A stretch of DNA of 6,152 bases, from the IMG/VR virus record IMGVR_UViG_3300045988_182191; one strand, given 5' to 3'. Numbering within the stretch: position 1 is the stretch's first letter; each line of letters starts with the position of its first letter. Origin of the DNA: a virus. The position numbers and the translations under genes were made by a program. Of this stretch, positions 1,784-2,380 are shown piece by piece. Under the pieces are notes generated by a model, which ran no database searches, was not told the DNA's origin, and worked only from the letters and a program-made list of their open reading frames with translations.

Positions 1784-2011
1784 TTAGTTTTCTATTTGTT
1801 TTTGTTTTCCTACTCCTAATAGCCAGTCTGTAGAAACATTGTAATAGTTTGCTAATTTGGCTATTGTTTCTAAGTCTGGTTCTCTTCTGCCTGTTTCGTA
1901 ATTTGCGATATTTCCTCTGGGCAATCCTAGTTCTTTGGCTATTTCTTCTTGTGTCATTCCGCATCTTTTACGTGCTTCTTTTAGTTTGTTTGGGAATTGT
2001 TCTGTATACAA
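1784..2011 (-). CDS. XRE-family (Cro/cI-like) helix-turn-helix transcriptional repressor, 75 aa, TTG start.
   Basis: The translation LKEARKRCGMTQEEIAKELGLPRGNIANYETGRREPDLETIAKLANYYNVSTDWLLG is the classic HTH_XRE pattern (Q-x-x-LA, N-x-x-x-E-x-G, then DWLL). On the minus strand an RBS AAGGTG sits 5 nt upstream of the TTG initiator. The TTG is the reverse complement of caa at 2009-2011. It is the only gene on the minus strand and is divergent from the structural operon. Confidence 0.8.
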   Translation of the reverse strand: MYTEQFPNKLKEARKRCGMTQEEIAKELGLPRGNIANYETGRREPDLETIAKLANYYNVSTDWLLGVGKQKQIEN

Positions 2012-2036
2012 TGTTTCACCTTCTTTCTATAGTTTT

Positions 2037-2045
2037 ATTGTAGCA
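2037..2045 (-). promoter_or_regulatory. Extended -10 promoter TGcTACAAT for the XRE repressor gene.
   Basis: The reverse complement of attgtagca (2037-2045) is TGCTACAAT, which matches TGnTATAAT at 8 of 9 positions. It lies about 25 nt upstream of the XRE start and abuts the left arm of the operator palindrome. Confidence 0.5.
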
Positions 2046-2082
2046 TATGTGCCGAAAAAATATGTGTCTTTTTGGCACATAT
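2044..2082. promoter_or_regulatory. Palindromic operator CATATGTGCC(g)AAAAA-atatgtgtc-TTTTTGGCACATAT carrying three ATATGTG half-sites, between the divergent promoters.
   Basis: Arm 1 is at 2044-2059 and arm 2 at 2069-2082. They are exact reverse complements apart from one inserted g at 2054. A third direct copy of ATATGTG sits in the centre (2060-2066). It is positioned between the XRE gene and the structural operon. Confidence 0.65.
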
Positions 2083-2088
2083 TGAACT

Positions 2089-2097
2089 TGTCATAAT
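2089..2097 (+). promoter_or_regulatory. Extended -10 promoter TGtCATAAT for the structural/assembly operon, immediately adjacent to the operator.
   Basis: tgtcataat (2089-2097) matches TGnTATAAT at 8 of 9 positions, and TTGAAC (2082-2087) lies just upstream. The first gene starts 50 nt downstream at 2147 with a strong SD. Confidence 0.45.
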
Positions 2098-2146
2098 GAC
2101 ACATTTTTGTTAAGATTTTATTAGTAGATAAAAAGGAGGTTACATT

Positions 2147-2380
2147 ATGAGGTTTACTGGGTTTTGTAAGTTTATGGGTGCGGAGACGCGTAAGGGTTTT
2201 AAAGATCCGTCTCAAATATTTTATATCATTGGACTTAGTCAGGGTTTGGATTCTCTGCGCTGTTATGTGGACGCTGAGTCTTATGTCCGCTATGCTGCTA
2301 TTGAGCCTTATTCGGATGTAGAAGCCGAGTTTGATTATAATCCGGTATCAGGCAAAATTAATTTGATTTCGATCAATTAA
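2147..2380 (+). CDS. 77-aa small protein. Candidate gV-like ssDNA-binding protein.
   Basis: Strong RBS AAAGGAGG lies 7 nt upstream of ATG 2147. Its position immediately before the major coat gene matches the Ff gene order. The segment LRCYVDAESYVRY resembles Ff gV LCYVDLGNEYPVL (C-Y-V-D-x-x-x-Y). The similarity is short and was judged by eye only. Confidence 0.4.
   Translation: MRFTGFCKFMGAETRKGFKDPSQIFYIIGLSQGLDSLRCYVDAESYVRYAAIEPYSDVEAEFDYNPVSGKINLISIN

What the first reader, a model, noticed from the sequence alone, without database searches (positions are those of the whole stretch)
1784..2150. Single XRE repressor with a palindromic three-half-site operator sandwiched between back-to-back extended -10 promoters
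The only minus-strand gene is a 75-aa XRE HTH protein. Between it and the structural operon lies the near-perfect palindrome CATATGTGCC(g)AAAAA / TTTTTGGCACATAT with a third central ATATGTG copy. The palindrome is flanked on the left by TGcTACAAT (minus-strand promoter for the repressor) and on the right by TGtCATAAT (plus-strand promoter for gV-like, coat, ATPase and so on). Occupancy of one operator would simultaneously autoregulate the repressor and silence virion production. This is a minimal lysogeny/carrier-state switch of the RstR/CTX-phi kind. The repressor also initiates at TTG with a good SD, suggesting deliberately low expression.
Basis: partly seen in the sequence, partly recalled or inferred. 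Interest (0 to 1): 0.65.

Follow-up and report, generated by a model that had tools for sequence, protein, structure and literature searches.

The report
Filamentous-phage XRE repressor with two operators

Summary
The window is a circular ~6,033-bp inovirus-like genome. Relatives are integrated, sometimes in tandem, in gut Lachnospiraceae such as Enterocloster and Lacrimispora.

The minus-strand gene 1784-2011 is a genuine XRE/HTH_3 protein with a conserved TTG start. Six related sequences (XRE 78-100% identical) conserve four things:
- a minus-strand extended -10, TGnTAnAAT (2045..2037);
- O1, GTGTC-N5-GGCAC (2064-2078);
- O2, TTGTC-N5-GACAC (2088-2102), centred 24 bp from O1;
- a plus-strand promoter, TTGTCA-17-TGtTAAGAT (2088-2116), whose -35 lies inside O2.

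The most likely mechanism is that XRE dimers at O2 block the promoter of the gV-like/coat operon. O1 lies at about -41 of the XRE promoter, so it could repress or activate it.

The interval between Rep and the gV-like gene is a swappable cassette. Relatives carry other XRE alleles with their own repeats, or a ribbon-helix-helix (RHH) protein instead.

Functionally this resembles RstR of CTXphi. It differs in that the controlled operon is not the replication gene, no LexA box is present, and the operators are short palindromes. It is a new member of a known kind, of modest interest. No binding or transcription start has been measured.

The parts
1784..2011 (-). XRE-family HTH regulator, 75 aa, TTG start at 2011..2009. 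Recognition helix is roughly residues 31-39 (PRGNIANYE).
   Evidence: Pfam HTH_3 E=1.4e-20, phrog_8 E=2e-24. Closest solved structure is 7t8i, the ICEBs1 Xre-family regulator, E=1.3e-16. Start codon invariant in 6 relatives.
2017..2023 (-). Shine-Dalgarno GAAGGTG, 5 nt upstream of the TTG start
   Evidence: Read directly from the sequence. 6 of its 7 positions (2017-2020, 2022, 2023) are invariant in alignment A1; position 2021 is a gap in L106.
2037..2045 (-). P(-): extended -10 TGCTACAAT for the XRE gene. It has no recognisable -35. Predicted start is about 2030.
   Evidence: TG, -12T, -11A and -7T are invariant, while -13 and -10 vary (C/A/T; C/T) in 6 sequences. Equivalent TGnTAnAAT or TGnCAAAAT elements occur in other cassette types. 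The transcription start is inferred, not measured.
2045..2053 (+). It is not conserved.
   Evidence: 3 of 9 positions invariant. It is mutated in L034, L104, L106 and L107. It has no partner half-site at the N5 spacing.
2064..2078 (.). O1: GTGTC-TTTTT-GGCAC, a 15-bp palindromic operator centred at 2071 (about -41 from the P(-) start and -52 from the P(+) start)
   Evidence: Exact match to GTGYCN5GRCAC. O1 and O2 are the only two matches in the window at <=1 mismatch, against 0.22 expected. 12 of 15 columns are invariant in 6 sequences. It is a perfect 9-5-9 palindrome in L034.
2088..2102 (.). O2: TTGTC-ATAAT-GACAC, a second operator centred at 2095, 24 bp from O1. It spans -35 to -21 of P(+).
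   Evidence: One mismatch to the pattern. 12 of 15 columns invariant. The 24-bp spacing is kept in all 6 sequences. In L105 the right half changes to GACGC in parallel with O1's left half changing to GCGTC.
2088..2116 (+). P(+): -35 TTGTCA (2088-2093), 17-nt spacer, extended -10 TGtTAAGAT (2108-2116). Predicted start is about 2123.
   Evidence: Found by the consensus scan, 9/12 plus TG. TTGTC, TG, -12T, -11A and -7T are invariant, with a 17-18 nt spacer in 6 sequences. The transcription start is inferred.
2134..2380 (+). SD AGGAGG (2134-2139) and the first gene of the controlled operon (2147-2380, 77 aa, gV-like?)
   Evidence: No Pfam or PHROG hit. A single-sequence AF2 model has pLDDT 62 with b1-b2-b3-a-b4-b5 topology. 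Its best, non-significant, fold matches are OB-fold ssDNA/RNA binders. The 'gV-like' label is plausible but weakly supported.
2398..2688 (+). Major-coat-like protein, with signal peptide and a transmembrane segment
   Evidence: phrog_2186 virion structural protein, E=1.6e-6.
2695..2726 (+). Strong intrinsic-terminator-like hairpin plus T-run directly after the coat gene. It would bound the highly expressed part of the P(+) transcript.
   Evidence: 10-bp stem with 6 GC pairs, followed by TTTTATTT.
1753..1780 (.). Hairpin between the convergent 3' ends of ORF 1552-1749 and the XRE gene (12 pairs). It is a likely two-way terminator and would make the XRE gene monocistronic.
   Evidence: Terminator scan and inverted repeat I5.

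Best explanation
This is the regulatory (immunity) region of a temperate filamentous phage of gut Lachnospiraceae.

The 75-aa XRE protein is transcribed leftward from an extended -10 promoter that lacks a -35 (2045..2037) and is translated from a TTG codon. I infer that it binds as dimers to two 15-bp palindromes of the form GTGYC-N5-GRCAC: O1 at 2064-2078 and O2 at 2088-2102, with centres 24 bp apart.

O2 covers the -35 hexamer and spacer of the rightward promoter TTGTCA-17-TGtTAAGAT (2088-2116). That promoter drives the gV-like gene and the coat gene, up to a strong terminator at 2695-2718, with read-through into the assembly genes. Occupancy of O2 would therefore shut off the proteins needed in bulk for single-strand sequestration and virion assembly, keeping the prophage quiet or setting a low secretion level.

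O1 lies just upstream of where a -35 for the XRE promoter would be (centre about -41). A dimer there would help fill O2 and would also modulate the repressor's own promoter. The geometry favours activation, as with lambda CI at OR2/PRM, at least as much as repression.

Shown: the gene family, the sequence elements, their conservation and spacing, and their co-variation with the repressor allele. Inferred: binding, dimer stoichiometry, transcription starts and the sign of autoregulation.
For: - Family: HTH_3 E=1.4e-20. The closest solved structure is the DNA-binding domain of the ICEBs1 immunity repressor, E=1.3e-16.
- Operator pattern: GTGYCN5GRCAC at <=1 mismatch hits only O1 and O2 in the 6,152 nt, against 0.22 expected.
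- Conservation: in six sequences whose XREs are 78-100% identical, 17 of 20 half-site positions are invariant, against 24 of 65 other positions between the two predicted starts (Fisher p=1.6e-4). The 24-bp O1-O2 spacing is kept in all six. Three relatives add a third copy, O3, 36 bp further on and just after the -10.
- Promoters: both show the textbook conservation pattern, with TG, -12T, -11A and -7T invariant and the rest free.
- Co-variation: L105's XRE has a changed recognition helix (PRSNLSN instead of PRGNIAN). It carries GCGTC in place of GTGTC in 3 of its 6 half-sites, at symmetry-equivalent positions of O1, O2 and O3.
- Other alleles: phages with nearly identical structural genes but another XRE allele (57% identity, helix PQST) have no such operator anywhere. 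They carry their own triple repeat AGCATATTTT instead. Four further cassette types each have their own repeated sites, and others have an Arc/RHH protein in the same slot.
- Lifestyle: prophage copies with flanking direct repeats, and tandem arrays, show a temperate phage.
Against: - There are no binding, footprint or transcription-start data. Starts are placed by the 7-nt rule only.
- The comparative set is small: six sequences, two of them near-identical to each other, and all related by descent. The Fisher test therefore overstates independence.
- The left half of O2 is also the -35 hexamer, so its conservation alone does not prove an operator. The argument rests on the conserved right half in the spacer and on the L105 change.
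- L104's XRE has a 3-residue deletion in the recognition helix, yet O1 and O2 there are intact.
- No inducer route is visible. There is no peptidase domain, no ImmA-like protease, no antirepressor and no LexA box.
- Rep has no operator upstream, so replication may escape this control.
Confidence: 0.65

Rival explanations
1. One long palindrome (2045-2059 / 2069-2082) with a central third half-site is the operator. It is flanked by TGcTACAAT (leftward) and TGtCATAAT (rightward), so one bound complex represses both promoters at once.
For: The long inverted repeat is real in this window and better than shuffles. The left half-site abuts the TG of P(-). L105 keeps a similar outer pairing.
Against: The left arm is invariant at only 3 of 9 positions and is lost in L034, L104, L106 and L107, although the XRE is 84-100% identical in those sequences. 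TGTCATAAT reads TGTCGAAAT in L105, which destroys the essential -11A, and it has no -35. The conserved TTGTCA-17/18-TGnTAnnnT explains the same bases better.
Confidence: 0.1
2. The elements are as in the best explanation, but the main role of O1 is positive autoregulation. XRE bound at -41 recruits RNA polymerase to a promoter that lacks a -35, giving a self-sustaining lysogenic state like lambda CI at OR2/PRM. In this cassette type no operator would repress the XRE promoter at all.
For: P(-) has no -35-like hexamer in any of the six sequences. The centre of O1 lies 41 bp from the predicted start, the classic class II activator position (established knowledge for lambda PRM and CAP class II promoters). 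No conserved site overlaps the P(-) core. ImmR, the closest solved relative, autoregulates its own expression as well as repressing Pxis (PMC5812530).
Against: The geometry depends on an unmeasured start site. Extended -10 promoters can work without activators. In other cassette types the XRE-proximal operator overlaps the XRE -10, which argues for negative autoregulation in the family.
Confidence: 0.3
3. The palindromes are not protein operators. They are hairpins used on the single-stranded genome, as a complementary-strand origin, Rep nick site or packaging signal.
For: 2012-2146 is the longest non-coding stretch. The plus strand can fold at -12.8 kcal/mol, z=-3.4. Ff complementary-strand origins are promoter-like hairpins (established knowledge).
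Against: The stable outer hairpin is not conserved, and the conserved units would give only 5-bp stems. The whole region is replaced together with the regulator gene, while Rep stays 84-94% identical (L010, L075). L010 has no copy of the motif. A far better origin candidate travels with Rep: a GC-rich hairpin with compensatory changes plus an invariant 26-mer at 591-656.
Confidence: 0.05
4. The XRE protein is not the maintenance repressor. It is a Cro-like or antitoxin-like factor, for example part of a toxin-antitoxin pair or a regulator of host genes.
For: Small XRE proteins of this size include Cro proteins and HipB/HigA-type antitoxins (weak PDB hits). tblastn hits in Listeria and Lactobacillus phages carry mixed annotations.
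Against: The gene is monocistronic between P(-) and the hairpin at 1753-1780, with no partner gene on its strand. It is divergent from the virion operon, which is the CI-like orientation. Related gut inovirus records annotate the homologue as a repressor. This position is occupied in relatives by other classic repressor folds (RHH/Arc).
Confidence: 0.07

Closest known systems
RstR / ig-2 region of Vibrio cholerae phage CTXphi
   Same: Both have an HTH repressor with no cleavable C-terminal domain, transcribed divergently from the phage's forward genes out of a compact region with several repressor sites (PMC4762005, Discussion and the Fig. 4 legend). Both have allelic, heteroimmune repressor/operator cassettes on an otherwise conserved phage (CTXphi side from my own knowledge; here). 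Both integrate without a phage integrase and form tandem prophage arrays (CTXphi side from my own knowledge; here).
   Different: RstR controls PrstA, the promoter of the replication gene. Here the adjacent operon begins with the gV-like and coat genes, and Rep (682-1497) lies on the other side with no operator upstream. RstR forms tetrameric repressor-operator complexes, as stated in the title of Kimsey & Waldor 2004 cited in PMC4762005. Here there are two 15-bp palindromes of the size usual for a dimer of this fold. CTXphi induction needs LexA cleavage (Quinones et al. 2005, cited in PMC4762005). No Cheo/LexA box is found here. Direct sequence comparison with RstR was not done.
FpsR of Shewanella filamentous phage SW1
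   Same: FpsR is the single reverse-oriented gene in an otherwise unidirectional inovirus genome. It is a Cro/CI-type HTH without a protease domain, and it binds the promoter of the forward operon (PMC4762005).
   Different: The SW1 promoters are separated and produce long overlapping 5' UTRs, and FpsR does not bind its own promoter (PMC4762005). Here the two promoters are back to back about 70 bp apart with short leaders, and one operator lies at -41 of the repressor promoter.
ImmR of ICEBs1 (Bacillus subtilis)
   Same: ImmR gives the closest solved structure by sequence (7t8i, E=1.3e-16 over residues 8-66). It represses a divergent promoter (Pxis) and autoregulates its own expression (PMC5812530).
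   Different: ImmR is inactivated through cleavage by the adjacent protease ImmA (PMC5812530) and, from my own knowledge, carries a C-terminal domain beyond the HTH. The protein here is 75 aa, HTH only, and the genome encodes no ImmA-like protease.
Lambda CI with OR1/OR2 and PR/PRM
   Same: Both have two dimer-sized palindromic operators 24 bp apart between divergent promoters. One operator overlaps the lytic promoter, and the other is centred about 41-42 bp upstream of the repressor promoter's start (established knowledge for lambda; geometry here).
   Different: Here there is no third operator over the repressor promoter, no Cro, and no C-terminal oligomerisation or RecA-sensitive domain. 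The promoters are of the extended -10 type.
Small XRE 'repressor' genes of uncultured gut inoviruses (bajarodino viruses; 'Repressor protein CI [Inoviridae sp.]')
   Same: These are direct homologues. 779 proteins reach E<=1e-12, many of them on 6-7 kb contigs. Rodent-gut inovirus records annotate them as repressor or XRE proteins. The divergent gene order is the same in L109-L113.
   Different: Those records carry annotation only. I found no description of their operators or promoters, although the literature search was limited. This window's allele (helix PRGN) and its GTGYC-N5-GRCAC sites form one specificity type among many.

Membership tests
XRE / Cro-CI HTH_3 transcription factors | HTH_3 domain above Pfam's gathering score | tested here: met
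   73.5 bits against a cut-off of 23, E=1.4e-20, residues 10-64.
XRE / Cro-CI HTH_3 transcription factors | Cognate DNA sites are short inverted repeats near the regulated promoter | tested here: met
   Two GTGYC-N5-GRCAC palindromes are the only matches in the window. They are conserved and overlap or adjoin the promoters. Binding itself was not tested.
RstR-type switch of CTXphi | HTH repressor transcribed divergently from the forward phage genes out of a compact shared control region in an inovirus | tested here: met
   Gene order and promoter elements. Zot, Rep and coat-like genes identify an inovirus-like genome.
RstR-type switch of CTXphi | The repressed promoter drives the replication initiator gene (rstA) | tested here: not met
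   The first genes downstream of P(+) are the gV-like gene and the coat gene. Rep lies at 682-1497 with no operator match upstream.
RstR-type switch of CTXphi | Co-repression by host LexA at the control region (SOS induction) | tested here: not met
   No GAAC-N4-GTTC (Cheo box) anywhere in the window at <=1 mismatch. Other host factors cannot be excluded.
RstR-type switch of CTXphi | Allelic repressor/operator cassettes giving heteroimmunity on a conserved phage backbone | tested here: inconclusive
   Cassette replacement is shown: XRE alleles at 55-68% identity with different repeats, and RHH cassettes, on backbones with 88-100% identical Zot. Heteroimmunity itself is a phenotype and was not tested. 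One contig with two types in tandem (L069) has 3x coverage and could be chimeric.
RstR-type switch of CTXphi | Sequence homology to RstR beyond the generic HTH fold | not tested
   No RstR sequence was compared.
ImmR/ImmA-type immunity modules | Repressor with a C-terminal region cleaved by an adjacent ImmA metalloprotease | tested here: not met
   The protein is 75 aa, with the HTH ending at residue 64. No protease family was found in any ORF.
Lambda CI / LexA-like repressors | C-terminal S24 peptidase (autocleavage) domain | tested here: not met
   No Peptidase_S24 hit, and the length rules it out.
Extended -10 (TGn) sigma-A promoters | TG at -15/-14 plus T-12, A-11 and T-7, conserved while other positions drift | tested here: met
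   Both P(-) at 2045..2037 and P(+) at 2108-2116 show exactly this pattern in six sequences. Activity and start sites were not tested.

The most novel reading that the evidence does not exclude
In this large group of gut Lachnospiraceae inoviruses, the slot between Rep and the gV-like gene may be a plug-in immunity cassette exchanged by recombination. It holds many XRE specificities, each with matching operators, or an unrelated RHH repressor. This would let several near-identical filamentous prophages stack in tandem in one cell without cross-repression. The window-type cassette would be a minimal lambda-like circuit, built from a single-domain 75-aa protein that activates its own -35-less promoter from -41 while blocking the coat operon. 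It would have no SOS or protease input, so it would act as a set-point controller of chronic virion secretion rather than an inducible switch.
Probability: 0.3. Interest if true: 0.5.

Novelty: new member of a known kind. Interest (0 to 1): 0.3.

Why it matters
Filamentous phages of Gram-positive gut anaerobes are known almost only from sequence, and how they stay quiet in their hosts has not been studied experimentally, as far as my limited literature searches show.

This analysis yields a concrete, testable wiring diagram for one of them: two defined 15-bp operators, two defined promoters, and a prediction of which operon is shut off. It also shows that the region is a swappable specificity cassette across a family with hundreds of members (779 XRE homologues at E<=1e-12).

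That is useful for annotating gut viromes, for predicting which co-resident inoviruses are mutually immune, and for building orthogonal repressor/operator pairs for Clostridia. It does not change any concept, because the logic is that of classical phage immunity regions.

Tried and rejected
1. I scanned IMG/VR for the palindrome TATGTGNC-N5-GNCACATA. The 50 hits are consistent with chance, by my own rough estimate from the size of the collection, which I did not compute. The only one near an XRE gene (L032) is an intrinsic terminator.
2. I scanned IMG/VR for the O1-O2 composite. Only the known relative and one unrelated chance hit (L108) were found.
3. I suspected that the small ORF 1552-1749 is the same gene as the small first gene of the rightward operon in other cassette types, which would make it a possible Cro or antirepressor. 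BLASTP shows no similarity, so I dropped the idea.
4. I tried to verify 'gV-like' by structure. The single-sequence AF2 model has pLDDT 62, and Foldseek against the PDB gave no match below E=0.1. The top hits are OB folds, so this is suggestive only.
5. Rfam found no RNA family in the window.
6. No LexA/Cheo box was found.
7. I read O2 as a 5-3-5 palindrome TGTCA-N3-TGACA. I rejected this in favour of 5-5-5 because L105's two changes break the 5-3-5 symmetry but match the change in O1.
8. I looked for operator-like sites upstream of Rep and found none above chance.
9. My first coordinates for the leftward -10 were off by one. They were corrected to 2045..2037.
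Full report
**What the window is.** Bases 1-119 repeat at 6034-6152, so the window is one circular genome of about 6,033 bp with a terminal overlap. All genes with family support but one lie on the plus strand:
- a rolling-circle Rep at 682-1497 (PF23343, phrog_3419);
- a small ORF at 1552-1749 (phrog_29576);
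- a 77-aa ORF at 2147-2380 with no family hit;
- a coat-like protein at 2398-2688 (phrog_2186);
- a Zot-type assembly ATPase at 2737-3405;
- several small or membrane ORFs;
- a 563-aa ORF that wraps the origin (4662..320).

This is the gene content and size of an inovirus. The nearest annotated records are uncultured pig and rodent gut "Inovirus sp." and "bajarodino virus" genomes.

**Lifestyle.** Relatives with 87-100% identical Zot occur in 34 metagenome contigs, several explicitly labelled human gut, and in genomes of Enterocloster aldenensis and Lacrimispora sp.. Several lie inside 110-417 kb bacterial contigs. In L071 two tandem copies differ by two mismatches and one gap, so the array is real. 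In L101 and L102 a roughly 6-kb element is flanked by a 22-bp or 72-bp direct repeat. No ORF resembles an integrase. The phage is therefore temperate, and a maintenance regulator is expected.

**Checking the observation.** The minus-strand ORF 2011..1784 is a solid XRE protein: HTH_3 at E=1.4e-20, and 7t8i, the ICEBs1 Xre-family regulator, at E=1.3e-16. The TTG start, the SD GAAGGTG five bases upstream, and the N-terminus MY(T/K)E are conserved. Orthologues in other cassette types start with ATG or GTG at the same residue.

It folds better than shuffled sequence (z=-3.4 for 2030-2125 and -4.0 for the core). The heptamer ATGTG[C/T]C occurs four times in 58 bp, against 1.1 expected in the whole window. 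The minus-strand TGCTACAAT is at 2045..2037. So the raw observation is real. The question is which parts matter.

**Comparative test.** A protein search found four XREs 78-89% identical to the window's, and I fetched their contigs. Together with the 96%-identical IMG/VR relative (L034), this gives six versions of the XRE-to-next-gene interval (alignment A1). Mean column identity is only 56%, so conserved islands stand out:
- **Minus-strand extended -10.** It reads TG-n-TA-n-AAT in all six. TG, -12T, -11A and -7T are invariant, while -13 (C/A/T) and -10 (C/T) vary. None of the six has a -35-like hexamer upstream.
- **O1, GTGYC-N5-GGCAC (2064-2078).** 12 of 15 columns are invariant.
- **O2, TTGTC-N5-GACRC (2088-2102).** 12 of 15 columns are invariant.
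- **Plus-strand promoter, TTGTC(A/G), a 17-18 nt spacer, then TG-n-TA-nnn-T (window 2088-2116).** It shows the same diagnostic conservation pattern. The consensus scan picked this promoter independently.

Across the interval between the two predicted starts, 17 of 20 half-site positions are invariant against 24 of 65 other positions (p=1.6e-4). The sequences are related, so this overstates independence.

In the whole window the pattern GTGYCN5GRCAC at <=1 mismatch matches only O1 and O2, against 0.22 expected. The O1-O2 centre distance is 24 bp in all six. L105, L106 and L107 carry a third copy 36 bp further on, just downstream of the -10.

**What does not survive.** The long outer hairpin is predicted only for the window type and L105. 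Elsewhere the inner O1 pairing, or nothing, is favoured.

In L034 the left site is weakened (GTACC) while the centre site becomes consensus. This turns O1 into a perfect 9-5-9 palindrome.

In L105 it reads TGTCGAAAT, with G at the essential -11 position, and it has no -35. The "three-half-site palindrome" is thus O1 plus a window-specific orphan half-site. The rightward promoter is a different one, whose -35 is embedded in O2.

**Link between protein and sites.** By alignment to the HTH_3 profile, the recognition helix is residues 31-39. Three comparisons connect it to the DNA sites:
- Window, L106 and L107 have (P/A)RGNIAN. L105 has PRSNLSN. L105 alone carries GCGTC instead of GTGTC, in three of its six half-sites and at the symmetry-equivalent position of O1, O2 and O3.
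- Phages whose structural genes are almost identical to the window's (Zot 95-100% identical) but whose XRE is only 55-57% identical (helix PQST; L010, L075, and the second copy in L069) have no GTGYC-N5-GRCAC site anywhere. They carry three repeats of (A/G)GCATATTT instead.
- A third allele (68% identical, KRYN, GTG start; L074, L091) and more distant ones (L109-L113) keep the same divergent layout, each with its own repeated inverted repeats. Examples are GTTAG-N5-GTAAC three times in L112 and TTGCT-N8-AGCAA three to four times in L109.

In a further set (L073, L076-L089, L101, L102) the minus-strand gene in this slot encodes a 59- to 72-aa protein instead (68 aa in most). The common 68-aa form matches Arc/ribbon-helix-helix at PF03869 E=2.4e-8; the L102 variant gave no Pfam hit.

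The Rep-to-gV interval is therefore a replaceable regulator-plus-sites cassette. That is what one expects of an immunity region, and not of an origin.

**Mechanism.** Placing starts 7 nt after each -10 puts the leftward start at about 2030 and the rightward start at about 2123. This is inference; nothing was measured.

O2 then spans -35 to -21 of P(+). A dimer there would occlude sigma region 4 and the spacer, which is a classical repression geometry. P(+) leads, after a 24-nt leader with a strong SD, into the 77-aa ORF and the coat gene. A 10-bp, GC-rich terminator follows at 2695-2718. This resembles the Ff arrangement, in which gV and gVIII are the most heavily expressed genes and a terminator follows gVIII (established knowledge).

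The 77-aa protein is only weakly supported as a gV analogue. Its AF2 model has pLDDT 62 with OB-like topology, and its best fold matches are OB-fold nucleic-acid binders, none of them significant.

O1 is centred at about -41 of P(-), a promoter with an extended -10 and no -35. That is the position from which lambda CI at OR2 activates PRM. I therefore rate positive autoregulation at about 0.3 as an explicit alternative to negative or no autoregulation. In other cassette types the XRE-proximal operator overlaps the XRE -10, so the sign may differ between cassettes.

No operator lies upstream of Rep. The switch seems to gate single-strand sequestration and assembly genes rather than replication. 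This differs from CTXphi.

**Rivals.**
- **Single-strand hairpin or origin.** The stable hairpin is not conserved, the region is exchanged independently of Rep, and a much better origin candidate lies at 591-656. That candidate is a GC-rich hairpin whose stem is kept by compensatory substitutions in distant relatives, followed by an invariant 26-mer.
- **Antitoxin or Cro role.** The gene is monocistronic, lying between P(-) and the hairpin at 1753-1780. It is oriented like a CI gene, and its slot is filled by other repressor folds in relatives.

**Comparison with known systems.** Functionally this is the same kind of thing as RstR/ig-2 of CTXphi and FpsR of SW1 (PMC4762005), and as ImmR of ICEBs1 (PMC5812530; closest solved structure). 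As to membership:
- It is an XRE/HTH_3 protein (feature met).
- It does not meet the RstR-specific features I could test. The controlled gene is not the replication gene, and there is no LexA box. Its operators are two short palindromes, whereas RstR forms tetrameric complexes at three binding sites.
- It lacks the ImmR C-terminal domain, any ImmA, and an S24 peptidase domain.
- Homologues are numerous: 779 at E<=1e-12, many of them on 6-7 kb contigs. Some are already named "Repressor protein CI [Inoviridae sp.]" or "repressor protein" in public records. In two literature searches I found no description of their operators.

**Verdict.** This is a real and well-delimited but conventional phage immunity region. 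It is a new member of a known kind, with interest about 0.3. The most interesting open points are the cassette exchange, including XRE-to-RHH replacement and a possible mixed tandem array in L069, and the possibility of a minimal self-activating circuit with no visible induction input.

Noticed in passing
window 591-656: A GC-rich hairpin (591-630) sits just upstream of Rep. Its stem is maintained by compensatory substitutions in distant relatives (L076, L079, L101, L102, L091, L112). An invariant 26-mer, TACTTGACAGTATAAACACTTAACAC (631-656), follows it. This is a likely plus-strand origin/nick site or packaging signal. It travels with Rep, not with the XRE cassette.
   Followed up: partly
window ~4550-4590; L101 3729-3750 and 9950-9971; L102 4047-4118 and 9932-10003: A probable attachment site. 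A 22-bp direct repeat, ACTAGACTTTCGCGAATAGTTG (72 bp in L102), flanks the roughly 6-kb prophage in Enterocloster and Lacrimispora. The window has the related sequence AGAAGTGTTTCGCGCATAGTTG. The phage encodes no integrase, so a host recombinase is presumably used.
   Followed up: partly
L071 289-9666; L034 whole contig (13,614 bp = 2.25 units of 6,039 bp): Tandem prophage or concatemer copies. The two copies in L071 differ by 2 mismatches and 1 gap, so the tandem is not an assembly artefact.
   Followed up: partly
L069 1-7304: One contig carries a window-type phage followed in tandem by a phage with the type B cassette (XRE 57% identical). This is either a heteroimmune double lysogen or a chimeric assembly. 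Coverage is only 3x.
   Followed up: no
window 4662..6033 + 1..320 (central part ~4780-5555): The 563-aa g3-like ORF has a central region with no DNA match in relatives that are otherwise 96-99% identical. The protein is 60-67% identical overall, with conserved ends. This looks like an exchanged receptor-binding domain.
   Followed up: no
L076-L089, L101, L102, L073 (interval between Rep and the gV-like gene): In these relatives the XRE gene is replaced at the same position and orientation by a 59- to 72-aa protein (68 aa in most). Four of the five variants scanned hit RHH families, and the common 68-aa form matches Arc/ribbon-helix-helix (PF03869 E=2.4e-8). Extra small membrane or coiled-coil ORFs are sometimes present.
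   Followed up: partly
P0006-P0009 (protein hits): Proteins of about 155 aa that consist of two tandem copies of this small XRE domain, apparently single-chain 'dimers'.
   Followed up: no
L104 3001-3219 (P0004): This XRE allele has a 3-residue deletion inside the recognition helix (PRG---NYETG), while O1 and O2 in the same contig are intact. It could be a defective copy or a sequencing or assembly error.
   Followed up: no
window 2695-2736: The ORF finder starts the Zot gene at 2695, inside the terminator hairpin. The start at 2737, preceded by GGAGGG, is more plausible, and all relatives align from there.
   Followed up: partly
window 2782-3336 minus strand: A 184-aa open frame lies antisense to the Zot gene. 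It was not scanned against any family library here and is probably a by-product of the codon usage of the sense gene.
   Followed up: no
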